Shown in pieces: positions 33 through 35,433 of a DNA stretch of 40,954 bases. The stretch lies in the UHGV virus genome UHGV-0187710. One strand, 5' to 3'. Numbering within the stretch: position 1 is the first letter of the stretch; each line of letters begins with the position of its first letter. The position numbers were made by a program, and so were the translations under genes. The notes under the pieces are model-generated. The model had not been told where the DNA came from and searched no databases. It saw nothing but the letters and a program-made list of their open reading frames with translations. The stretch is from a virus.

Positions 33-1283
33 ATGGAAAGTAAAGTAGTTGTTCCGGCACAAGGCAAGAAGATCACCCTGCAAAACGGCAAACTCAACGT
101 TCCTGAAAATCCGATTATCCCTTACATTGAAGGTGATGGAATCGGTGTAGATGTAACCCCAGCCATGCTGAAAGTGGTCGACGCTGCAGTCGAGAAAGCC
201 TATAAAGGCGAGCGTAAAATCTCCTGGATGGAAATTTACACCGGTGAAAAATCCACACAGGTTTACGGTCAGGATGTCTGGCTGCCTGCTGAAACCCTTG
301 ATCTGATTCGTGAATATCGCGTTGCCATTAAAGGCCCTCTGACCACTCCGGTTGGTGGCGGTATTCGTTCTCTGAACGTTGCCCTGCGCCAGGAACTGGA
401 TCTCTACATCTGCCTGCGTCCGGTACGTTACTATCAGGGCACCCCAAGCCCGGTTAAACACCCTGAACTGACCGATATGGTTATCTTCCGTGAAAACTCG
501 GAAGACATTTATGCGGGTATCGAATGGAAAGCAGACTCTGCCGACGCTGAGAAAGTGATTAAATTCCTGCGTGAAGAGATGGGCGTGAAGAAAATTCGCT
601 TCCCGGAACATTGCGGCATCGGTATTAAGCCGTGTTCTGAAGAAGGTACCAAACGTCTGGTTCGTGCAGCGATCGAATACGCAATTGCTAACGATCGTGA
701 CTCTGTGACCCTGGTGCACAAAGGCAACATCATGAAGTTCACCGAAGGCGCGTTTAAAGACTGGGGCTACCAGCTGGCGCGTGAAGAGTTTGGCGGTGAA
801 CTGATCGACGGCGGCCCGTGGCTGAAAGTTAAAAACCCGAATACCGGCAAAGAGATCGTCATTAAAGATGTGATTGCTGATGCATTCCTGCAACAGATCC
901 TGCTGCGTCCGGCTGAATATGATGTTATCGCCTGTATGAACCTGAACGGTGACTACATTTCTGACGCTCTGGCTGCACAGGTCGGCGGTATCGGTATCGC
1001 CCCAGGCGCAAACATCGGTGACGAATGCGCCCTGTTTGAAGCCACCCACGGTACTGCGCCGAAATATGCCGGTCAGGACAAAGTAAACCCAGGCTCTATT
1101 ATTCTCTCCGCTGAGATGATGTTACGCCATATGGGTTGGACTGAAGCGGCTGACCTGATTGTTAAAGGTATGGAAGGCGCAATCAATGCCAAGACCGTAA
1201 CCTATGACTTCGAACGTCTGATGGAAGGCGCTAAACTGCTGAAATGTTCAGAATTTGGTGACGCGATCATCGAAAACATGTAA
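33..1283 (+). CDS. icd: NADP-dependent isocitrate dehydrogenase; the 3' end is the known lambdoid integration target, so the last part may be phage-supplied
   Basis: 416-aa ORF whose full-length sequence is recognisable as enterobacterial Icd (ends ...[16 protein letters not shown]); GC-balanced host-like composition; followed by a hairpin terminator. Confidence 0.97.
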
Positions 1284-1307
1284 TGTAGGAATTTGTTAAA
1301 ATCATTA

Positions 1308-1339
1308 ACGGGGGCGTAACGCTCCCGTTGTTTTTTGTT
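1308..1339 (+). terminator. rho-independent terminator downstream of icd
   Basis: 8-bp GC-rich stem (acgggggc / gctcccgt, one G-U pair) with short loop, followed by tgttttttgtt, 25 nt after the icd stop. Confidence 0.6.
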
Positions 1340-1395
1340 AGGCTGCTAACGGTTATCAAAACTTTATCAAAATAAGTTATCAAAACGAGGTTGAA

Positions 1396-2013
1396 GTGAA
1401 ACGCATAAGGATAAAGAAACCAAGATGGATTTTTGTTATTTTATTTTTTGTATTTTTAGGTATTCCATTATTTATTGATGGTATCAAGTATACTGATTAC
1501 GCTTCAGAGAATTTGCTGCCTGAATTTACTGGTGTAATACTTGAGTTTGTAATCATTCTTTATGTTATTGATTATATTCAAAAGAAAAATGAGCGTGATA
1601 ATAAAATAAAAGCAGAAAAACGTTTGCGTGAAATGTTTATTTTTTTCTTTAATAAACTGAATGACCACGTTCCTGAAAATTGCAGGATCGGATCTTTTTA
1701 CGGGCGAGAGCATGATAAAAATAAGCGTCAAATGTCATTAATGAAAGCCCATATAGAAAAACATGGGCTAGATGAAAAGGCAATAAGAGAAATTCGTATT
1801 CATTGCAAAGGTGATATTGATTTATTCAATAGTTTTATTCCAGTTGTTGCTACATTAGAAGAGCAGCATTTAAAAGCATGGACGAGAATTTCATATTACA
1901 TGAATGCAATAATTACGGAAAGAGAAACTGTACAATTTTCCGTTATAAAAATCATTGATAAAATACAGACATTTGATGATGCATCCTATAATAATAAACT
2001 GATAGTAGATTAA
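1396..2013 (+). CDS. hypothetical membrane-anchored protein, AT-rich cargo gene between icd and int
   Basis: 205-aa ORF with GTG start preceded by GAGG; hydrophobic N-terminal segment (WIFVILFFVFLGIPLF); visibly AT-rich relative to flanking genes; no recognisable motif. Confidence 0.55.
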   Translation: MKRIRIKKPRWIFVILFFVFLGIPLFIDGIKYTDYASENLLPEFTGVILEFVIILYVIDYIQKKNERDNKIKAEKRLREMFIFFFNKLNDHVPENCRIGSFYGREHDKNKRQMSLMKAHIEKHGLDEKAIREIRIHCKGDIDLFNSFIPVVATLEEQHLKAWTRISYYMNAIITERETVQFSVIKIIDKIQTFDDASYNNKLIVD

Positions 2014-3137
2014 GAGGGTATTTTTTGCCATTCTTTACCTCTGTCATCATGATATTTATCTGTTTGATGCTGGGTTTTATGACCCAGCAATTTTTGTGTA
2101 TCAATTCCCTGGTCTTTGTAAAGACGTTCAGACAATGATCTTTGCTCATGGAATGTAGCGGGTGTTCCATCTCCCCATTTAATACAAGCCTTATCCCTCG
2201 CCTTACTGAAATTCATCGTTAATGTGTTCGATTTAACTTGTGCGCCTCGTTTAGCCTGTGATGTAGCTCGGAAAAAGTGAATCAGATAGGGGCTAACTGC
2301 ATAATCTCGACAGCGCGCAACGACGTCACGTAAACTCCAGTTAATCGCATTGAGGCGAAGAGAAAGAGGTATAGCAATTTTGCTGCCGGTTTTTTCCTGT
2401 TCGATATGCAGATGATCATCCCAGATATCGCTAAATTTCATTTTGGATATGTCACCAAGACGTTGCCCAGTCACAAGGGCAAGCAGCATTGCATTTCCCA
2501 TATATTGATGTTTCTTATCTGCGATATCGAAAATCTTCAGCCACTCTTCGAGACTAAGTCGTTGTCTGGTAATCTTGCGCCTGGGCTGTTTAGTAGCAAG
2601 GGCAGGGTTGTGACCAGGCGGCACTTCACCGTAGTGTTGGGCCTCTTTGAAAACATCGATCAGTACTGAACGAACAACTTGTGCCATTCTTGGTTGACCT
2701 GCAGATAGATACTCTTCAAGAATTTGAGCAATATCCCTGACATCAACAGAAGATATGAGCTTCATTCCCGCACGTTCCTTAAGAAGTGCAACTGGCTTGG
2801 CTTTTTGTTTATACGTATTCTCCTTGATATCACCTGAAGCGAATCTTTCCTCCTGAATTTTCCAGTACCGCTCAAGCCAGGTAACAGTGGTAATTGACTT
2901 ACCCTTGCCGGTAGCAATTCGATCGCTTATAGCCAGTACCTGTCTTGAACGCTGCTCAGCAAGTCTTGCGTTTGCCTCAGTAGCAATTGCTTTAGCCTCA
3001 ACTTCATCAGTACCTAGGCTGTGAAATTTCCCCGTTACAGGATGCTTGTACCTCCAATACACTTTATTGACCTTACGACTGTATAGTGGATAGAGGTTAG
3101 GTATTGATACATTATTTTTACGTGGTCTCGCAGCCAT
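2010..3137 (-). CDS. int: tyrosine-recombinase integrase, lambda Int family
   Basis: N-terminus MAARPRKNNVSIPNLYP and C-terminus FHEQRSLSERLY...LLGHKTQHQTDKYHDDRGKEWQKI resemble lambda Int as recalled; start taken at the internal Met at 3137 (the track ORF extends to 3215); overlaps the xis 3' end as in lambda. Confidence 0.93.
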   Translation of the reverse strand: MAARPRKNNVSIPNLYPLYSRKVNKVYWRYKHPVTGKFHSLGTDEVEAKAIATEANARLAEQRSRQVLAISDRIATGKGKSITTVTWLERYWKIQEERFASGDIKENTYKQKAKPVALLKERAGMKLISSVDVRDIAQILEEYLSAGQPRMAQVVRSVLIDVFKEAQHYGEVPPGHNPALATKQPRRKITRQRLSLEEWLKIFDIADKKHQYMGNAMLLALVTGQRLGDISKMKFSDIWDDHLHIEQEKTGSKIAIPLSLRLNAINWSLRDVVARCRDYAVSPYLIHFFRATSQAKRGAQVKSNTLTMNFSKARDKACIKWGDGTPATFHEQRSLSERLYKDQGIDTQKLLGHKTQHQTDKYHDDRGKEWQKIPS

Positions 3138-3363
3138 CGCTGAGGATCCTTTGCAATTTTGGTGAATCAGATTTCTTGATAACCGGCGCAGCAAGTTCTC
3201 CAACCAATTCCGCATCCTCCCTAACTCTCCAGAGCCTACCTTGCTTCATTGCTGGTGGAGAAAAGAGATTTTGCTTAGCGTAACGGCGCAATGTCGAGAC
3301 GCTAGGTGGATTACTTCTGTATTTATCGGTTGCCCATTCTTCAAGAGTTAACATCTGAATCAT
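3118..3363 (-). CDS. xis: excisionase (Xis-like)
   Basis: 81-aa ORF directly upstream of and overlapping int; N-terminal LTLEEWA...PPAMKQGRLW resembles lambda Xis as recalled; GGAG 8 nt upstream of the ATG. Confidence 0.75.
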   Translation of the reverse strand: MIQMLTLEEWATDKYRSNPPSVSTLRRYAKQNLFSPPAMKQGRLWRVREDAELVGELAAPVIKKSDSPKLQRILSDGCETT

Positions 3364-3408
3364 GCGTTATTCTCCATTTAATAACCCGGCTGCACCCGGC
3401 ATACGTCA

Positions 3409-15463: not shown

Positions 15464-15556
15464 AGTAAATTTCACTATCTCCTTCAAACGCGCTTGCAAA
15501 ATGCAACAAAATAAGCCATATTTAAAGCGTATTTGATATGTTGCCAAAGTTTTATA

Positions 15557-15580
15557 AACCCGCCAATGAGCGGGTTTTTG
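15557..15580 (+). terminator. rho-independent terminator downstream of the Q-like gene (tR'-like)
   Basis: 7-bp stem aacccgc / gcgggtt with loop caatga followed by tttttg; a TATAAT hexamer lies just downstream at 15584..15589. Confidence 0.6.
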
Positions 15581-15626
15581 CGTTATAATTCACCGATTTA
15601 AACCAATTGTTTTAAATAGGTGAAGT

Positions 15627-16478
15627 ATGAAAATAGATAATCCCGAAAATCCACTTGAACGAAACGATTTTTCGATGGATGACTTCCATCACTACTTAAG
15701 GGAGTTTGATAAAGCTGTATGTGAAGCGAATGCTGTAAGTCAGGGGGTTGGTGTGCGAATGGCTGAGGCTTTTAAAGGGTGGTCTACATACATTTTTTCA
15801 CGAATCTGCATTCATGCTTCAATAATGATTTCCAACGTACCAAAATCAAGATGGGCTAAGCGGGATTATGACTTTTGGGATTTTTCGGCGATTGCACCTC
15901 ATGTAAGAGCGATTCTGGAAGCTGAGTTATTGTTTATGTATTTATCTGAGAATCCAGATTCAACTGAGGAGTGGTCAGCAAAGTTGAATGTCATGCACAT
16001 GAATGATTGTGTAAAGAGAATTGAGTTATTTACATCTAGTGATAATACGAAAGCATTGGATTTTTATCATGAACAAAAAGATATAATAACTGAGAGACTT
16101 AATAACAACCCTGTTTTTTTATCCCTTGAACAAGGAACCAGAAAACGTTGCTTGACTGGAAAAGCGCTTATGATTCCAAATCGAGATGAGTTATTGGTTA
16201 AACTGGGAAAAGATCCAAAGTCATTTAAAATAATGTTCGATTTTTTATCTCATTATACGCATATACTACCTATGTCATATTATAAAATGGAGCCAAACGG
16301 AAGAGGAACTGGTTGTTTTAACAACTATGACTTTGGCTATATGATTATGGGGATGATTATTTGTACTGAATCCTTGACTAAGTGTACAGATAGATTAGTA
16401 GAACTTTTTCCTGATGTTAGACGGTTGCGAAAAGGAACTAAATCAAAATTCACGTTAGGTCCTAAACCTACAAAATAA
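15627..16478 (+). CDS. hypothetical cytoplasmic protein, AT-rich cargo gene between the Q-like gene and the lysis cassette
   Basis: 283-aa ORF, strongly AT-rich compared with neighbours, no recognisable catalytic motif; followed by a hairpin terminator. Confidence 0.65.
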   Translation: MKIDNPENPLERNDFSMDDFHHYLREFDKAVCEANAVSQGVGVRMAEAFKGWSTYIFSRICIHASIMISNVPKSRWAKRDYDFWDFSAIAPHVRAILEAELLFMYLSENPDSTEEWSAKLNVMHMNDCVKRIELFTSSDNTKALDFYHEQKDIITERLNNNPVFLSLEQGTRKRCLTGKALMIPNRDELLVKLGKDPKSFKIMFDFLSHYTHILPMSYYKMEPNGRGTGCFNNYDFGYMIMGMIICTESLTKCTDRLVELFPDVRRLRKGTKSKFTLGPKPTK

Positions 16479-16505
16479 CAATGAGTCGCTTGCTGCTATT
16501 TTAAA

Positions 16506-16530
16506 GGCTTCCAAATGGAAGTCTTTTATA
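16506..16530 (+). terminator. putative terminator after the 15627..16478 cargo gene
   Basis: stem ggcttcc / ggaagtc with a 4-nt loop followed by ttttata. Confidence 0.45.
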
Positions 16531-16696
16531 ATTTCAGGTTTCGCAAATTATACTTATCTTCACATTTTCATAATAGCGCATAAGCCAGCCCCCCCTCCAT
16601 CAACCACAGCGCCATACGAACTATCGGAGGTGAGGCTAAATTAGTAATCGTTCTTACCTGCACAGGTGCATAAAAATCAGCCTAAAATGCGAGTTT

Positions 16697-17359
16697 TTAT
16701 GAAGAGAGCAGCATGACTTTTTCTTTTGCGGGCGAAGGTGACTGCTCTTTCAAAGGGAAAATTATAAATGCTATAAATGCAGTAAATAATACTATGAAAG
16801 CTAGCACTGTAACTTTCCTTGAAGATGATAGGGCTTTGTTATATTCCTTGGCTATTTTGTTCGTTATATGGATCTTAGTGCTATTTATTTCATCTTTTAG
16901 TATGGATAATTTATTTATAAATTCCTGTGTTTCTTCTCGAGAGTAAAGTTCTGAAGCATCTCTTGGGGTTTCATGTGGATGCCGAGTATAACCAAGTATT
17001 TGTGGTATTAAATTACCATGCGATTGAACTACAGATTCATATTTCTTATAGCAAGCATTATCAAAAAATCTCATTCTTATGCTAAGTTCTCTGAGTTTGT
17101 CAACGTCTAGAGAAACTTGTTCGTTGGCAATAATTAAATCTCCGCGGTTTAATGTATTCTTGTGTTGAAAAATTAGTAAAAGCCATTCTGTATTATTGTA
17201 AAGCTTTTCAAGATTGGCATGTATATCAAGTCCGAGTTTTTCATATGCGGATAATTTGACCTCTTTTTCCTTTGCAGAAAGAGAAGATGAATAAGCCAGT
17301 AATCCGCTTATTATGGCAACAATAAATGTTCCTATAATGGTTAAGGTATTCGAGTCCAT
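16697..17359 (-). CDS. hypothetical membrane protein with hydrophobic segments at both termini, AT-rich cargo gene
   Basis: start at internal ATG 17359 (MDSNTLTIIGTFIVAIISGLLAY...); C-terminal VTVLAFIVLFTAFIAFIIFPL; helical/coiled middle; convergent with 15627..16478. Confidence 0.6.
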   Translation of the reverse strand: MDSNTLTIIGTFIVAIISGLLAYSSSLSAKEKEVKLSAYEKLGLDIHANLEKLYNNTEWLLLIFQHKNTLNRGDLIIANEQVSLDVDKLRELSIRMRFFDNACYKKYESVVQSHGNLIPQILGYTRHPHETPRDASELYSREETQEFINKLSILKDEINSTKIHITNKIAKEYNKALSSSRKVTVLAFIVLFTAFIAFIIFPLKEQSPSPAKEKVMLLSS

Positions 17360-17466
17360 TGTATTCTTCAAAAGTTGGTCAAAAATATATTGTAATATTT
17401 TAATGTATAAAATCAATCATTTCCCCTCATTCTGAGAGGACTCCCAGCAACAAAGAGGGGGGCTAA

Positions 17467-17853
17467 ATGTCCGATCCGATTTCCGGTTCTGGGATGGCTG
17501 GTGGTGTCCTGACGGGGGCCAGCGTCTATGGATTTCTGTCCGGAACCGATTACGGCGTGGTGTTTGGCGCATTTGCCGGGGCTGTATTTTACATTGCAAC
17601 CGCAGCGGATCTAAGTGCAGCGCGCCGACTGGCATATTTTCTGGTGTCGTATATTGCGGGGATCCTTTGTTCCGGGCTGGTGGGTTCAAAGCTGGCTCAG
17701 GCTACCGGCTACAGTGATAAACCACTGGATGCCATTGGCGCCGTAATCGTTTCTGCTTTAGCCGTCAAAATCCTGACATTCCTGAATAATCAGGATGTCG
17801 GCTCGCTGGTGGCGCTGATAACGCGCCGGGGAGGTTCAGGTGGTACAAAATGA
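17467..17853 (+). CDS. putative holin (multi-pass small membrane protein)
   Basis: 128-aa ORF with several hydrophobic helices and charged C-terminus, first gene of the lysis cassette. Confidence 0.6.
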   Translation: MSDPISGSGMAGGVLTGASVYGFLSGTDYGVVFGAFAGAVFYIATAADLSAARRLAYFLVSYIAGILCSGLVGSKLAQATGYSDKPLDAIGAVIVSALAVKILTFLNNQDVGSLVALITRRGGSGGTK

Positions 17854-18742: not shown

Positions 18743-19012
18743 ATGGGGCTTGAAATGATTATCGGCCTGGTTGTTGCTGTGCTGGCTGCAATTGCAGGTG
18801 CTTTTGGGCTGGGCAAATCACGCGGTACCAGTATCGCTGAAACAAAAGCGGACCAACAACGCACTGAAGAACGTGCAATAGCTATTGAAGCGGTTGCAGA
18901 ACGCCGGGTAGAAACAACAAAAGGAGCCAGGGATGTACAACAGACTGTTAACCATATGCCTGATGACGCTGCTGATCGCGAGCTGCGCAAAAACTGGACA
19001 CGTAAGGATTGA
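18743..19012 (+). CDS. i-spanin (Rz-like)
   Basis: N-terminal transmembrane helix (MIIGLVVAVLAAIAGAFGL) then a charged helical periplasmic region; GAGG 5 nt upstream of the ATG; directly after the endolysin. Confidence 0.7.
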   Translation: MGLEMIIGLVVAVLAAIAGAFGLGKSRGTSIAETKADQQRTEERAIAIEAVAERRVETTKGARDVQQTVNHMPDDAADRELRKNWTRKD

Positions 19013-19154
19013 GGTTATTGACACCGGCTGCGATTGGGTAAAACCCATCTACGGCACTGCTCATGATTGGGAAGTGCTGGACAGGCAGACCAAGAAAGAC
19101 ATTCTTATGCATAACAAAGTGTGGATGTCAAACTGTGGCTCTATAACTTATTGA
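18933..19154 (+). CDS. o-spanin (Rz1-like lipoprotein), overlapping the i-spanin 3' end in another frame
   Basis: signal peptide with lipobox LIASC; overlapped spanin architecture. Confidence 0.65.
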   Translation: MYNRLLTICLMTLLIASCAKTGHVRIEVIDTGCDWVKPIYGTAHDWEVLDRQTKKDILMHNKVWMSNCGSITY

Positions 19155-19805
19155 TTTTGTTTTTTTGTTGTCTACCATATCAGGCAATGTGAAGGCATAT
19201 AGAAGAAATACTTCGGTGAAACCAATCATTTCTTGAGCATCTTCTTTTGAAAATTCTTCATCAGAATGAACTGCTCCATTGGAATCGATTCGAACTATAT
19301 GTGCCCATTCCCTCATTTGATCTGTAATCAGTCCCTTAGCATGCAACATAGAAATCCGTTTAACCAATTTTTCATCTTTTGAGTCATTTCCCAGTAACTC
19401 CCGTGTAGCAATGTCCAAGACTTTACGGCAAAGCATAACGGATGTGTCGAAACGACAGCGCCCTAAGTTGTCTTTTGCTTCTATGAAAGCCATAGCAGCA
19501 CGTGGCGGAGTGTGTTCGGGGGCGTTAAGGAGGGTGGGTTTCGGGATGATATCAATCAACTGGTACTCAGTATTTCCAGGAATGATTACGTTTACATCAT
19601 TATTTTGCCTAGATTTTGCACGAGGTAAATAACCACCGGGATTATTCATTTTTACAATAGCAATACCTGATTGAAAACAGCTTCGACAACAAAATGCAAT
19701 ATTAACTAAAGGCCCGGCGTTGATACGCAGTTCTGCCCATCCTTCAAGGACAGCATTTTCCCTCAGACAATGTGGGCAAGTGATATCGAAAGTGAGAATT
19801 CGCAT
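19128..19805 (-). CDS. zinc-ribbon protein with DUF4145-like (HEPN-superfamily-like) C-terminal domain; candidate abortive-infection/defence cargo
   Basis: start at internal ATG 19805; N-terminal CPHC ... CCRSC; C-terminal FIEAKDNLGRCRFDTSVMLCRKVLDIATRELL ... HIVRIDSNGAVHSDEEFSKEDAQE pattern recalled as DUF4145; opposite strand to the lysis genes. Confidence 0.7.
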   Translation of the reverse strand: MRILTFDITCPHCLRENAVLEGWAELRINAGPLVNIAFCCRSCFQSGIAIVKMNNPGGYLPRAKSRQNNDVNVIIPGNTEYQLIDIIPKPTLLNAPEHTPPRAAMAFIEAKDNLGRCRFDTSVMLCRKVLDIATRELLGNDSKDEKLVKRISMLHAKGLITDQMREWAHIVRIDSNGAVHSDEEFSKEDAQEMIGFTEVFLLYAFTLPDMVDNKKTKSISYRATV

Positions 19806-20550
19806 GACTCTACTCCATACATTAAAAGAAATTGAAAATGAATTACACAATGCACAACGACCTGAGTCTACACTCCTTCAACGATATGAAGTATCGAATG
19901 AGATTAAAAAAAAGGAGTTTGTAGTCGCTTTGATCGGTAAACTGATAGAATTGGACCGCCGTCTCTATGTCACATCATTGAAGCCTTAGTTTCAATTTTA
20001 CCGATTTATCGCTTAAGGGGTAGGACTTCAACACTACTAAGTGAGCATTGCAGCAGGCATTCAGGGGAATGCTGTGACAGTAGTTAGCTAGGGTAAACCG
20101 TTTGCGCCTGGGGATTTTACTTTGCGACGGAAAATTAAAAAACTATATGATTTCTTATCCCACTAGGATGTCTGCGGACTACTACTGACTGTTTAGGCTA
20201 TTACGAGGGGCTCAAACTCAACGTCTGGCATCAACGCAGAACTGAAAAAGTCGCCATGAATGTGGTTACGGTATTTGGTGGGATATAAACGTACCTTCAT
20301 TTCTAAGCTTGATAATCACCTTTGTCCGAATTGCCTACGCGATAGTCATGTAGTTTTAGTCATAACCGTTTACCCTATTGATGTCAAGATAAATTGGATA
20401 ACACTGATGAATCGAACCTCTAAATCCTTTGATGGGCCACTCATAGCTGACTGGTTCAAAAAAGTGTTATCAATGGTATGATAAGTTGAGATGAAAGGTG
20501 TAAATGAACTATAATAATTCAACAGTTAATCTGAGAAAAATGGATTATGT

Positions 20551-20820
20551 ATGTCGAATGTAAAAAAAATAGATGCTATAGTTCAAAATTTATTTGAATT
20601 CAGAGATGCTACAGGTGAACTTACGGATAAAAATATTGTTTTAATACAAAAAATCATAACGAACTTACCTGACTATGCTGGTAAGGATCCATATGAATTT
20701 TATTCATCATTTTCTGAAGATATTAATGAGTCGCTCAAAGCAATTGCCAATTATCATAAGGCACATGCTAAATACATTAATGCCCTCGATAAATTAGCAG
20801 AGCTTAGGTCGGAGGGGTAA
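20551..20820 (+). CDS. hypothetical small soluble protein, gene 1 of an AT-rich two-gene cassette
   Basis: 89-aa ORF, very AT-rich, predicted all-helical; 2-nt gap to the next gene. Confidence 0.55.
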   Translation: MSNVKKIDAIVQNLFEFRDATGELTDKNIVLIQKIITNLPDYAGKDPYEFYSSFSEDINESLKAIANYHKAHAKYINALDKLAELRSEG

Positions 20821-20822
20821 TA

Positions 20823-21200
20823 ATGGCTACGGAAGATATTCAGGCTTTGTTATCTAAAGTTAATGCGTTAAGATTTGAAGATAAAAGAATAGAGAAGGAA
20901 ACAGGAGAGATTGAAAATGAAATTCAGGCTCAATTTCTTCGTGATGGTAAAACAAGGAGTACATTAACCATAACATTTATGAGAGGCTTTTTTGGTCTTA
21001 TCGTTTTTTCTTTTATATTTGTGATAGCTTATAACTATTGCGCAGTGCAATGGGTACTTCAATTACAAAGCAAAGGGCTCATGGAGGCTTCTAAAAGTAT
21101 CGCACTACTTGAGTTAGATAAGGTGTTATCTATTATGGTTAGTGCGTTAGGAACATCTCTTGGGTTTATAATTGGCTATTATTTTAAAGACAAAAAATAA
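20823..21200 (+). CDS. hypothetical small membrane protein, gene 2 of the AT-rich cassette
   Basis: 125-aa ORF: charged helical N-terminus then two hydrophobic segments (FFGLIVFSFIFVIAY and VLSIMVSALGTSLGFIIGYYF); followed by a strong terminator. Confidence 0.6.
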   Translation: MATEDIQALLSKVNALRFEDKRIEKETGEIENEIQAQFLRDGKTRSTLTITFMRGFFGLIVFSFIFVIAYNYCAVQWVLQLQSKGLMEASKSIALLELDKVLSIMVSALGTSLGFIIGYYFKDKK

Positions 21201-21273
21201 ATAATTTAATTTTACATTGCTATTTATGTTTTGCTTTTAAGATTTTTAACTTTCTAGATGTAGAGTTATTGTT

Positions 21274-21305
21274 AAAGCACTGGTATTTGCCAGTGCTTTT
21301 TTATT
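21274..21305 (+). terminator. rho-independent terminator after the AT-rich two-gene cassette
   Basis: 10-bp stem aaagcactgg / ccagtgcttt with loop tatttg followed by ttttatt. Confidence 0.65.
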
Positions 21306-21599
21306 AAAATCCGCGGATTAATGACGGCAATCATGAATACTCCTCCAAAGACTGATCCAACGATACGGGTGTATAAGTCACACTTGTTTAATCTGTGATT
21401 GATGGCACTATAATTTATGTTGCACAACATAAACTGCCGATGGAGGGAATTGAGTGCTGAGCATGTCAGACATAAGTGTGTTGTCGAAGGTCTCCTCAGG
21501 CATGGTTTCTGCATAACGTCGACACTTGAAAGCCTCCATAATGACAATAAAGTATAAGTATTATCATTATTAATTGTCACTTGCCGTTGCGACATGCTT

Positions 21600-34672: not shown

Positions 34673-34788
34673 AGATCGAAGAATCGATCTGATCGATCGA
34701 TATATTTAATTGAACTTATTCAGCTGCTGGTGATGTTGTTCAGGCGCACGCCATGGTGCGCCTTATAAACAAACTGAAGGGAAACAAT

Positions 34789-35319
34789 ATGAATAAGTTA
34801 GCAGTGGCTGTTCTGGCTATGTCGGTTCTTGGTGGTGTCGGGGTTGCAAGTGCCGCTGATTATAAAAATACCGTGTCTCTGGGATATGCACATACACATT
34901 TGTCTGGTTTGATTTCAGGAAATGCAGCTGGTGCGAATCTGAAATATAACTGGGAACATCTGAATAGCGGGTTTGGCGTAGTGGGATCGCTTACCTATAC
35001 CGAAGCTGATCTTAATAATTATTATTACGGCTATCGGGTTGGCGAAGTTAACTACACGTCTTTCCTTGTGGGGCCGTCATATCGTTTTAATGATTTTCTG
35101 AGTACCTACATCATGCTCGGAGGGGCCAGTGGCGAAGTGAAAGATAATTTTGGGCACAGTGAATCTAAAACGAGTTTCGCCTATGGGATCGGTATCCAGG
35201 TTAACCCGGTAGAGCATTTTGCAATCAATGCCTCATATGAGCATGCTAAATTCAGTACTCAACTGGGTGATGATATTGATGCCGGAACCTGGGTTTTGGG
35301 TGTGGGTTACAGTTTCTGA
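34789..35319 (+). CDS. Ail/Lom/OmpX-family outer membrane beta-barrel protein (virulence-type moron)
   Basis: signal peptide MNKLAVAVLAMSVLGGVGVASA, alternating beta-strand pattern and C-terminal aromatic (GVGYSF); inserted between tail genes M and L. Confidence 0.88.
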   Translation: MNKLAVAVLAMSVLGGVGVASAADYKNTVSLGYAHTHLSGLISGNAAGANLKYNWEHLNSGFGVVGSLTYTEADLNNYYYGYRVGEVNYTSFLVGPSYRFNDFLSTYIMLGGASGEVKDNFGHSESKTSFAYGIGIQVNPVEHFAINASYEHAKFSTQLGDDIDAGTWVLGVGYSF

Positions 35320-35340
35320 CAGTATTCAATATTCCAATAA

Positions 35341-35368
35341 AAAACCCTCCACTGTGAGGGTTTTTTAT
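35341..35368. terminator. terminator between the ail/lom-like gene and convergent sodC
   Basis: stem aaaaccctc / gagggtttt with loop cactgt, flanked by T-run (plus strand) and A-run. Confidence 0.65.
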
Positions 35369-35433
35369 TGGGTAAATTTTCCGGCCTCCTCCTAAAGGTG
35401 CTGTCCGGTGTCTTTTTGTTGTATTACCTGCTG

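What the first reader, a model, noticed from the sequence alone, without database searches (positions are those of the whole stretch)
1284..3363. Prophage integration at the icd 3' end, with an AT-rich membrane-protein cargo gene between icd and int
An intact-looking icd is followed directly by a terminator, one AT-rich ORF (1396..2013, N-terminal hydrophobic helix) and then xis and int on the opposite strand. Lambdoid elements such as e14 integrate into the icd 3' end and supply a replacement 3' segment, and in e14 the genes between icd and int include the Lit exclusion protease. The ORF here is therefore in a known defence/cargo position, though it shows no Lit-like metalloprotease motif.
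Basis: partly seen in the sequence, partly recalled or inferred. Interest (0 to 1): 0.42.

Follow-up and report, generated by a model that had tools for sequence, protein, structure and literature searches.

The report
e14-type prophage junction with unknown cargo
This is the left end of a lambda-like prophage sitting in the E. coli icd gene, a textbook arrangement, but between the attachment site and the integrase it carries one small membrane-protein gene of an undescribed family, in the slot where sister prophages keep anti-phage genes.

Summary
Window 1120..3363 is attL of an e14-family lambdoid prophage in E. coli icd. E. coli hosts with other icd alleles (22 differences up to 1112) are identical to the window from 1113 to 3400. 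In the closest complete-genome relative the displaced icd fragment starts at window position 1120, giving a 16-bp core at 1120..1135.

Phage DNA supplies, in order:
- the last 164 nt of icd (one change, K414E)
- its own icd terminator
- three GGTTATCAAAAC arm-type repeats
- a one-gene cassette (ORF205, 1396..2013, 29% GC)
- int and xis on the opposite strand

The window's own attR lies outside the window.

Sister prophages fill the same slot with Lit, RexA/RexB, an AbiP/putAbiC-like protein or an AriA-like ATPase pair.

ORF205 has two transmembrane helices and a cytoplasmic helical bundle. It matches nothing in Pfam, PHROGs, PADLOC, NCBIfam, PDB or BFVD. Its family is small (54 cluster representatives in 1.84 billion), mostly on temperate phages or integrase-bearing elements where context was readable, and under purifying selection.

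The most likely role is membrane-level exclusion or abortive infection (about 0.5), untested. The integration is ordinary; the cargo is a moderately interesting candidate.

The parts
33..1283 (+). icd (NADP isocitrate dehydrogenase), 416 aa, intact. 33..1119 is host DNA and 1120..1283 is phage-supplied.
   Evidence: ORF and translation. It is 97-100% identical to E. coli icd. Against a prophage-free allele only K414E falls in the phage-supplied part.
1120..1135 (.). Inferred att core / crossover region, TGTTACGCCATATGGG.
   Evidence: In PCP07014 the attR match to icd starts exactly at window position 1120, and attL and attR are identical up to 1135. Host-allele differences stop at 1112 in L004 and L005. 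A Citrobacter attR starts at the same place.
1120..1283 (+). Phage-borne replacement of the last 164 nt of icd.
   Evidence: Identical in hosts with different icd alleles. Five nucleotide differences and one amino-acid difference from the native end. The published e14 figure is 163 bp (PMC6379469).
1306..1336 (+). Phage copy of the icd intrinsic terminator: 11-pair hairpin plus T-run.
   Evidence: The native terminator in L013 has the same architecture with a different stem sequence.
1352..1386 (+). Three direct repeats, (G/T)TTATCAAAA(C/T), probably the P' arm-type Int binding sites.
   Evidence: The copies lie at +233, +244 and +257 from the core in the window, PCP07014 and the Citrobacter element, and one further exact GGTTATCAAAAC lies at -128 in the PCP07014 P arm. 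They are conserved in all e14-type attL sequences examined. They are replaced by 3x TTCCCCAAAAC next to the 58.6%-identical integrase of an O157 prophage.
1387..2009 (.). Exchangeable cargo slot between the P' arm repeats and the last codons of int.
   Evidence: Similarity among e14-type attL sequences ends at about 1386. It resumes within the last ~6 codons of int.
1396..2013 (+). ORF205: a 205-aa protein with two transmembrane helices and a cytoplasmic helical bundle, of an unannotated family.
   Evidence: No hit in Pfam, PADLOC, PHROGs or NCBIfam.
2068..2099 (+). Hairpin plus T-run inside the 3' coding end of int, on the ORF205 strand. It may terminate the ORF205 transcript (unverified).
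   Evidence: -15.4 kcal/mol, z = -3.5. The stem lies in a conserved int coding stretch, so coding constraint alone could explain it.
2010..3137 (-). int: lambda-type tyrosine integrase, 375 aa.
   Evidence: Pfam Arm-DNA-bind_1 and Phage_integrase. It is 85.8% identical to e14 IntE, 91.7% to PCP07014 int and 58.6% to the O157 icd-site int.
3118..3363 (-). xis: excisionase, 81 aa, overlapping the int start by 20 nt.
   Evidence: Pfam Exc, 3e-12. Annotated as xisE in the homologous E. coli loci.

Best explanation
Window 1120..3363 is the attL end of an e14-family lambdoid prophage integrated in the E. coli icd gene.

Int-mediated recombination at a 16-bp core (1120..1135) cut off the native last 164 nt of icd. 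The phage replaced it with its own near-identical copy plus its own terminator, so Icd stays functional. Next come three arm-type Int-binding repeats that close the functional attP. Immediately after them sits a one-gene cassette (ORF205), convergent with int and overlapping its stop codon.

Because the slot is flanked by conserved attP-arm and int sequences, related phages can swap its content by homologous recombination. Sister prophages hold Lit, RexAB, an AbiP/putAbiC-like protein or an AriA-like ATPase pair there.

ORF205 is an inner-membrane protein with both termini in the cytoplasm. It has two transmembrane helices, with E43 and G46 invariant and E50 nearly invariant in the second, followed by a cytoplasmic four-helix bundle. 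I infer that it is expressed from the prophage and protects the lysogen against other phages at the membrane. It would do this either by blocking genome entry (superinfection exclusion) or by opening an ion leak on infection (abortive infection, as RexB does).

Shown: the attL anatomy, the cassette slot, the protein architecture, the conservation, and the mobile-element association of the family members whose context was readable. Inferred: expression, any defence function, and the mechanism.
For: attL anatomy:
- Allele switch at 1113-1120 in independent hosts.
- attR with a displaced icd fragment in PCP07014 and in a Citrobacter element that carries an ORF205 homologue.
- Prophage-free attB for comparison.
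- Arm repeats on both arms, and covarying with integrase type.
- The literature records icd as the e14 / phage 21 site, with a 163-bp duplicated end.

Cargo slot:
- Lit in K-12.
- putAbiC / PADLOC AbiP.
- RexA/RexB, PADLOC 1e-103 and 4e-55.
- AriA-like ATPase plus a partner.

ORF205:
- The exact protein and every close homologue examined (down to 35% identity) sit in icd -> ORF <- int.
- More distant members sit in other phages or integrase-bearing elements, twice alongside Abi-type genes; one context (P0041) was uninformative.
- dN/dS is 0.11 against the Raoultella copy.
- AlphaFold2 model pLDDT 79.5, above 90 in the bundle.
- Conserved residues E43, G46, E50, R78, H158, W162.
- Positive-inside charge pattern.
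- GC 0.29.
Against: - No direct evidence of any anti-phage activity.
- No similarity to any known defence protein: PADLOC gives 0 hits, and hhalign against RexB, putAbiC and YmfE gives probability below 1%.
- No convincing sigma-70 promoter between the icd terminator and the start codon, so expression is unexplained.
- The gene could persist in decayed prophages simply because it adjoins the icd end, which must be kept.
- The window's own attR was not seen.
Confidence: 0.55

Rival explanations
1. ORF205 is a lysogenic-conversion membrane protein unrelated to phage defence, for example envelope or stress physiology, colonisation, or immunity to a bacteriocin or toxin.
For: This prophage carries other host-benefit cargo genes, Lom and SodC. 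Two family members are fused to an extra transmembrane segment and an OmpA-like peptidoglycan-binding domain, which points to envelope biology. A non-significant profile hit to the lactococcin-A immunity protein, another helical bundle, has E = 0.07.
Against: Every identifiable cargo found in this exact slot in sister prophages is an anti-phage system. The OmpA and immunity-protein hits are below threshold.
Confidence: 0.25
2. ORF205 serves the phage's own life cycle. It could tune int expression through convergent, overlapping transcription, or act as a membrane factor in the lysis-lysogeny or lysis pathway.
For: The stop codons of ORF205 and int overlap. A hairpin plus T-run for the ORF205 strand lies inside the int 3' end. 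The start codon is 10 nt from the last arm-type site.
Against: Sister phages with 86-92% identical int carry unrelated genes in the slot, or none in the phage-21-like case. So the slot content is dispensable for integration. Distant family members sit away from integrases.
Confidence: 0.1
3. ORF205 is a non-functional hitchhiker. It is kept only because it lies next to the phage-supplied icd 3' end, which cannot be deleted.
For: In Raoultella and Citrobacter the homologue survives next to icd while int is truncated or replaced by an IS. Truncated copies of 85-185 aa also exist.
Against: The length of 205 aa is conserved at 63-75% identity across genera. dN/dS is 0.11. There are 54 cluster representatives, including members in unrelated phages with no icd nearby. 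Specific residues are invariant.
Confidence: 0.07
4. There is no site-specific integration in icd. The element merely lies downstream of an unaltered icd.
For: The phage-supplied end differs from a native allele at only 5 of 164 nt, so by itself it looks almost native.
Against: There is a sharp allele switch at 1113-1120 across hosts. The post-stop sequence and terminator stem differ from those of a prophage-free strain. Displaced icd fragments are present in relatives.
Confidence: 0.02

Closest known systems
e14 cryptic prophage of E. coli K-12 (intE, xisE, lit; attachment in icd)
   Same: Same attachment site and layout: icd 3' end replaced, cargo, then convergent int and xis. Int is 85.8% identical, and the arm repeats are the same.
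   Different: The e14 slot holds ymfD, ymfE and lit (3.3 kb), while here it holds a single unrelated 205-aa gene. The core differs at 3 of 16 positions. This prophage has full lambdoid replication, lysis, head and tail modules, as far as the window reaches.
Phage 21 / O157-type icd-integrating prophages
   Same: Integration at the same place in icd, with a replacement 3' end and terminator.
   Different: Int is only 58.6% identical. The arm repeats are TTCCCCAAAAC rather than TTATCAAAAC. There is no cargo between the repeats and int.
Lit (peptidase U49) of e14
   Same: Same genomic slot, and expressed from a prophage.
   Different: ORF205 has no protease motif or Pfam hit and is a membrane protein. 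Lit is a soluble metalloprotease that cleaves EF-Tu (established knowledge, not tested here).
RexB of lambda (membrane component of RexAB abortive infection)
   Same: A small helical inner-membrane protein encoded by a lambdoid prophage. A RexAB pair occupies this very slot in strain GPEC617.
   Different: No sequence or profile similarity. RexB has four transmembrane helices and needs RexA, whereas ORF205 has two plus a cytoplasmic bundle and stands alone here.
PD-T7-4 (Vassallo et al. 2022)
   Same: A single-gene prophage-associated defence gene reported to often overlap an integrase gene (PMC9519451).
   Different: ORF205 has no PADLOC hit, and that library includes PD-T7 models.
Csx28 (membrane pore accessory of Cas13b)
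   Different: The score is no better than for dozens of unrelated helical bundles, there is no conserved HEPN motif across the family, and there is no CRISPR context.

Membership tests
e14 / phage-21-type prophage integrated in icd (attL) | Lambda-type tyrosine integrase with an arm-binding N-domain, plus an excisionase, adjacent to icd. | tested here: met
   Pfam PF09003, PF00589 and PF07825. 85.8% identity to IntE.
e14 / phage-21-type prophage integrated in icd (attL) | The icd 3' end (about 163-165 nt) is supplied by the phage, with a switch of ancestry at the core. | tested here: met
   Differences between hosts stop at 1112, and sequences are identical from 1113 to 3400. Core at 1120..1135.
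e14 / phage-21-type prophage integrated in icd (attL) | A displaced native icd 3' fragment at the other prophage end (attR). | not testable with these tools
   The window and all matching contigs end after the J tail gene. The fragment is present in PCP07014 and in a Citrobacter element with an ORF205 homologue.
e14 / phage-21-type prophage integrated in icd (attL) | Repeated arm-type sites flanking the core on both arms. | tested here: met
   Three copies at 1352..1386, and an exact copy at -128 in the P arm of PCP07014. Actual binding by Int was not tested.
e14 / phage-21-type prophage integrated in icd (attL) | Int/Xis-dependent excision that regenerates attB. | not testable with these tools
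   Needs induction followed by PCR or sequencing.
Lit / peptidase U49 | HExxH metalloprotease domain. | tested here: not met
   No Pfam hit. The only His-rich stretch, HIEKH, is not HExxH and is not conserved.
RexB, putAbiC/AbiP, YmfE (other proteins found in this slot) | Sequence or profile similarity. | tested here: not met
   PADLOC and PHROGs give no hits. hhalign probability is below 1% for each.
Any curated protein family (Pfam, NCBIfam, PHROGs, PADLOC, PDB) | A hit above the curated threshold. | tested here: not met
   The only hit is DUF3671 at 17.8 bits against a cut-off of 34, on the hydrophobic N-terminus.
Prophage-encoded anti-phage (exclusion or abortive infection) gene | Reduces infection by other phages when expressed. 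| not testable with these tools
   Only indirect support: the slot content in sister prophages and the mobile-element association of the family.

The most novel reading that the evidence does not exclude
ORF205 founds a new single-gene, inner-membrane anti-phage family (two transmembrane helices with conserved glutamates, plus a cytoplasmic four-helix bundle). The family is carried as an exchangeable cassette by lambdoid, other tailed and corticovirus-like temperate phages. Its members act at the membrane, by blocking genome entry or by infection-triggered ion leak. The OmpA-fused relatives would be cell-wall-anchored versions.
Probability: 0.4. Interest if true: 0.6.

Novelty: new variant of a known kind. 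Interest (0 to 1): 0.4.

Why it matters
The integration itself adds nothing new, because icd is the classic e14 / phage 21 site.

The useful result is the precise definition of a cassette slot. It runs from the last arm-type repeat to the last codons of int, and e14-type phages fill it with Lit, RexAB, AbiP-like or AriA-like systems. That makes any unknown gene found there, such as ORF205, a well-motivated defence candidate that is cheap to test.

ORF205 belongs to a small family that is annotated only as 'hypothetical protein' in every source record read here. In Enterobacteriaceae it was recorded in E. coli, Salmonella, Citrobacter, Enterobacter and Raoultella. It is absent from current defence-system libraries and from 5,426 complete RefSeq E. 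coli genomes.

Tried and rejected
- Self-search of the window for a second icd fragment: none, because the window ends in the tail genes.
- Walking to attR through the J and I tail proteins: all contigs with this J break about 100 bp after it, and contigs with the same I protein carry other tail ends and no icd fragment.
- Fetching CP057166.1 from the annotated collections: not held.
- ORF205 against Pfam, PADLOC, PHROGs and NCBIfam: nothing above threshold.
- Family profile against PDB sequences: nothing significant.
- All 39 aligned members against Pfam: only two sub-threshold OmpA hits in fusion proteins.
- Foldseek against BFVD: nothing at E <= 0.001.
- The afdb50 structure library was unavailable.
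- HEPN idea (R131-x4-H136): rejected, because neither residue is conserved across the family.
- hhalign against YmfE, RexB and putAbiC: no relation.
- DNA and protein searches of 50,697 phage records and of complete E. coli genomes for ORF205: no match.
- Promoter scan: no site between 1336 and 1395, and counts in the region equal those of shuffles.
- Rfam on the whole window: no family.
- Wang et al. 1997 and Mehta et al. 2004 could not be read. My recollection that the former describes repeated dodecamer arm sites and a roughly 209-bp icd-homologous stretch in attP is memory only.
Full report
**1. What is in the sequence**

The window starts with a complete icd gene (33..1283, 416 aa).
- 23 nt after its stop lies an 11-pair hairpin with a T-run (1306..1336). 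It folds at -17.2 kcal/mol, z = -3.6.
- An ORF of 205 codons follows at 1396..2013. It has a GTG start and a GAGG 5 nt upstream.
- Its GC content is 0.294, against 0.50 for icd and 0.43 for int (profile).
- On the other strand lie an integrase and an excisionase. Pfam gives Arm-DNA-bind_1 at 5e-36, Phage_integrase at 2e-15 and Exc at 3e-12.
- The integrase reading frame used by gene callers and by all homologues is 2010..3137, 375 aa, starting MAARPRKNN. It overlaps xis (3118..3363) by 20 nt.
- The stop codons of ORF205 and int overlap (TTAA at 2010..2013).

**2. Host and prophage**

The icd sequence is 97-100% identical to E. coli icd, so the host is E. coli. Downstream, the window holds a lambdoid gene set:
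- an S24/LexA-type repressor
- Dam, RusA and the Q antiterminator
- holins and an endolysin
- terminase, portal, capsid, tape measure and J

The window ends inside the prophage. A self-search finds no second icd fragment.

**3. Mapping attL**

Six other contigs carry exactly the same ORF205 protein downstream of a full-length icd.
- In two E. coli with a different icd allele (L004, L005) there are 22 differences from the window between 266 and 1112. From 1113 to 3400 there are none in L005 and one in L004.
- In L007 the last difference within icd is at 1136, in L008 at 1190, and in a member of another genus (L009, icd about 88% identical) at 1253.
- A prophage-free E. coli (L013, where icd is followed directly by iraM) matches the window through the coding end. 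Its spacer and terminator-stem sequences differ, and similarity is lost after about 1340.

The closest integrase relative in a complete genome is strain PCP07014 (int 91.7% identical). It has a roughly 46-kb prophage between icd and a 168-bp icd pseudogene next to iraM.
- The similarity of its attR to icd starts exactly at window position 1120.
- Its attL and attR share TGTTACGCCATATGGG (1120..1135).

A decayed Citrobacter element that carries an ORF205 homologue also has both an intact icd and a displaced fragment starting at the same place (L018 9854..10011).

The last 164 nt of icd in the window are therefore phage DNA. They differ from the native allele at 5 nucleotides and one residue (K414E). 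This agrees with the 163-bp figure published for e14 (PMC6379469). It also agrees with the description of icd as the attachment site of e14 and phage 21 (PMC12803456; PMC10111431).

The variable end-point of host-specific differences (1112 to 1253) suggests additional homologous exchange within the 164-nt duplicated stretch.

**4. Arm-type sites and the cassette slot**

Three direct repeats, (G/T)TTATCAAAA(C/T), lie at 1352..1386.
- They are at +233, +244 and +257 from the core in the window, PCP07014 and the Citrobacter element.
- An exact GGTTATCAAAAC is present at -128 in the P arm of the PCP07014 attR.
- An O157 prophage at the same icd site has an integrase only 58.6% identical. It carries three TTCCCCAAAAC repeats at the equivalent place, directly next to its int stop codon.

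Repeats on both arms, covarying with integrase type, are what arm-type Int sites look like. Binding itself is not shown.

Similarity among e14-type attL sequences ends at about 1386. It resumes within the last six or so codons of int. That defines an exchangeable slot, 1387..2009.

**5. What other prophages keep in that slot**

| Strain | Slot content | Evidence |
|---|---|---|
| K-12 e14 | ymfD, ymfE, lit | |
| PCP07014 | 278-aa protein: Pfam putAbiC 2e-18, PADLOC AbiP 1.5e-9 | |
| GPEC617 | RexA and RexB: PADLOC 1e-103 and 4e-55 | |
| elppa4 | AAA_15 ATPase (best PADLOC match AriA, 7e-27) plus a 188-aa partner | |
| O157 (phage-21-like) | nothing | |

Every identifiable cargo is an anti-phage system.

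**6. The ORF205 protein**

It has no hit above threshold in Pfam, PADLOC, PHROGs or NCBIfam.

Distribution:
- A word-indexed search of 5.8 billion proteins finds 10 relatives, all from Enterobacteriaceae.
- A full profile search of 1.84 billion cluster representatives finds only 54 at E <= 0.001.
- Source annotations are uniformly 'hypothetical protein', in E. coli, Salmonella, Citrobacter, Enterobacter and Raoultella.
- It is absent from 5,426 complete RefSeq E. coli genomes and from 50,697 phage records.

Structure and topology:
- The AlphaFold2 model has mean pLDDT 79.5, and above 90 in the C-terminal part. It shows helices at 10-26 and 40-89, followed by a helical bundle.
- Charges place both termini in the cytoplasm: six K/R in the first ten residues, an acidic 12-residue loop, and eight K/R after the second helix.
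- Across 39 diverse members E43, G46 and W162 are invariant. E50, R78, H158 and F193 are nearly so. E43 and E50 lie seven residues apart in the second membrane helix, on one face of it.

Structure comparison is uninformative:
- Nothing turns up in BFVD.
- Nothing significant turns up among PDB sequences.
- Profile comparison with RexB, putAbiC and YmfE gives probabilities below 1%.

**7. Evidence that it is a real, selected gene linked to mobile elements**

- The 205-aa length is kept at 63-75% identity across genera.
- dN/dS against the Raoultella copy is 0.11. dS is 1.75, near saturation, so the ratio is only approximate.
- Close homologues, and one at 35% identity (P0011), all sit in the same icd -> ORF <- int arrangement. 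In Raoultella and Citrobacter the integrase has decayed but the ORF is intact.
- More distant members lie in other settings:
  - in a tailed-phage region between terminase and portal genes, followed by a co-directional 401-aa unknown gene
  - in an element with two integrases and a putAbiC gene (this member is fused to extra membrane segments and a sub-threshold OmpA-like domain)
  - inside a corticovirus-like prophage with a PM2-type capsid protein, which also carries an Abi_C gene
  - next to a UvrD helicase

**8. Mechanism**

Shown: the attL structure, the slot, the protein architecture, its conservation, and the phage or integrase-element context of most family members examined.

Inferred: ORF205 is made in the lysogen and acts at the inner membrane against superinfecting phages. 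It would either prevent genome entry or form an ion leak upon infection, using the conserved glutamates of the second helix. I put this at about 0.5.

Expression is unresolved. No promoter-like site lies between the terminator and the start codon. Read-through of the icd terminator, or initiation within the arm-repeat region, are the options. A hairpin with a T-run at 2068..2099 on the ORF205 strand could end its transcript inside int. However, it lies in a conserved int coding stretch, so coding constraint alone may explain it.

**9. Rivals**

- A non-defence conversion function, such as envelope physiology or immunity: 0.25.
- A role in the phage's own integration or lysis control: 0.1. This is weakened because sister phages replace or lack the gene.
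- A hitchhiking non-functional ORF: 0.07. This is contradicted by the conservation.
- No integration in icd at all: about 0.02. This is contradicted.

**10. Comparison with the known, and verdict**

The integration module is a member of the e14 family. Four defining features were tested and met. attR and excision could not be tested for this copy.

ORF205 is not Lit, RexB, putAbiC/AbiP, YmfE or PD-T7-4. PD-T7-4 is noted in PMC9519451 as often overlapping an integrase gene, but ORF205 has no PADLOC hit.

The finding is therefore a known kind of arrangement (a prophage in icd with a defence-type cargo slot) holding an uncharacterised cargo family. That makes it a reasonable but unproven defence candidate. 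Interest 0.4.

Noticed in passing
L015 3552..5638 (E. coli elppa4, same icd-int slot): The slot holds a 507-aa AAA_15 ATPase (best PADLOC match AriA, 7e-27; also PD-T4-4_A and GajA-like) plus a 188-aa protein with no hit. This may be a variant two-gene defence system.
   Followed up: partly
L014 1885..1997 (E. coli O157:H7 attL at icd): This prophage's integrase is 58.6% identical. It has three TTCCCCAAAAC repeats instead of TTATCAAAAC at the same position, and no cargo between them and int. This suggests arm-site and integrase co-variation at a shared attB.
   Followed up: partly
window 1113..1253, compared with L007, L008 and L009: The point where host-specific icd differences stop varies (1112, 1136, 1190, 1253) among carriers of the identical downstream element. 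This implies homologous exchange inside the 164-nt duplicated icd stretch and mosaic icd 3' ends.
   Followed up: partly
window 15500..17500: An AT-rich island (GC 0.33-0.38) lies just after the Q antiterminator gene. It has a 283-aa ORF (15627..16478, sub-threshold DUF5677) and a 239-aa ORF on the minus strand (16697..17416, no hit). This is a second cargo position of unknown function.
   Followed up: partly
window 19000..21500: An AT-rich stretch (GC 0.31-0.41) lies between the lysis and terminase genes. It has a DUF4145 protein (19128..19850, minus strand, 8e-11) and a 125-aa ORF with no hit (20823..21200).
   Followed up: partly
window 34753..35961: Ail/Lom-family outer-membrane protein (34753..35319) and periplasmic Cu/Zn superoxide dismutase SodC (35434..35961, minus strand) are inserted among the tail genes. 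These are classic virulence-type prophage cargo genes.
   Followed up: partly
window 38179..40954: The J-type tail tip protein is 905 aa here (the PCP07014 prophage also has a 905-aa TipJ-family protein, not compared), but 1166 aa, with extra C-terminal tip domains, in prophages sharing the identical neighbouring tail protein. All public contigs with this J end about 100 bp after it, presumably at a repeat.
   Followed up: partly
L022-L025 (Raoultella), L018-L021 (Citrobacter): ORF205 homologues stay intact next to icd while the integrase is reduced to a fragment, or replaced by an IS, and the rest of the prophage is gone. Truncated copies of 85-185 aa also occur in Enterobacter and Raoultella.
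   Followed up: partly
P0022 and P0025 (L031 326..1816): Two distant family members carry additional membrane segments and a C-terminal OmpA-like domain (sub-threshold, best 1.3e-4). In L031 and L032 (P0025) an overlapping 352-aa unknown gene follows, and in L031 two integrases and a putAbiC gene lie further downstream.
   Followed up: partly
window 2068..2099: A 9-pair hairpin plus T-run on the plus strand lies inside the int 3' coding region (-15.4 kcal/mol, z = -3.5). The stem is largely conserved in other e14-type int genes, where it encodes a conserved stretch near the integrase C-terminus.
   Followed up: partly
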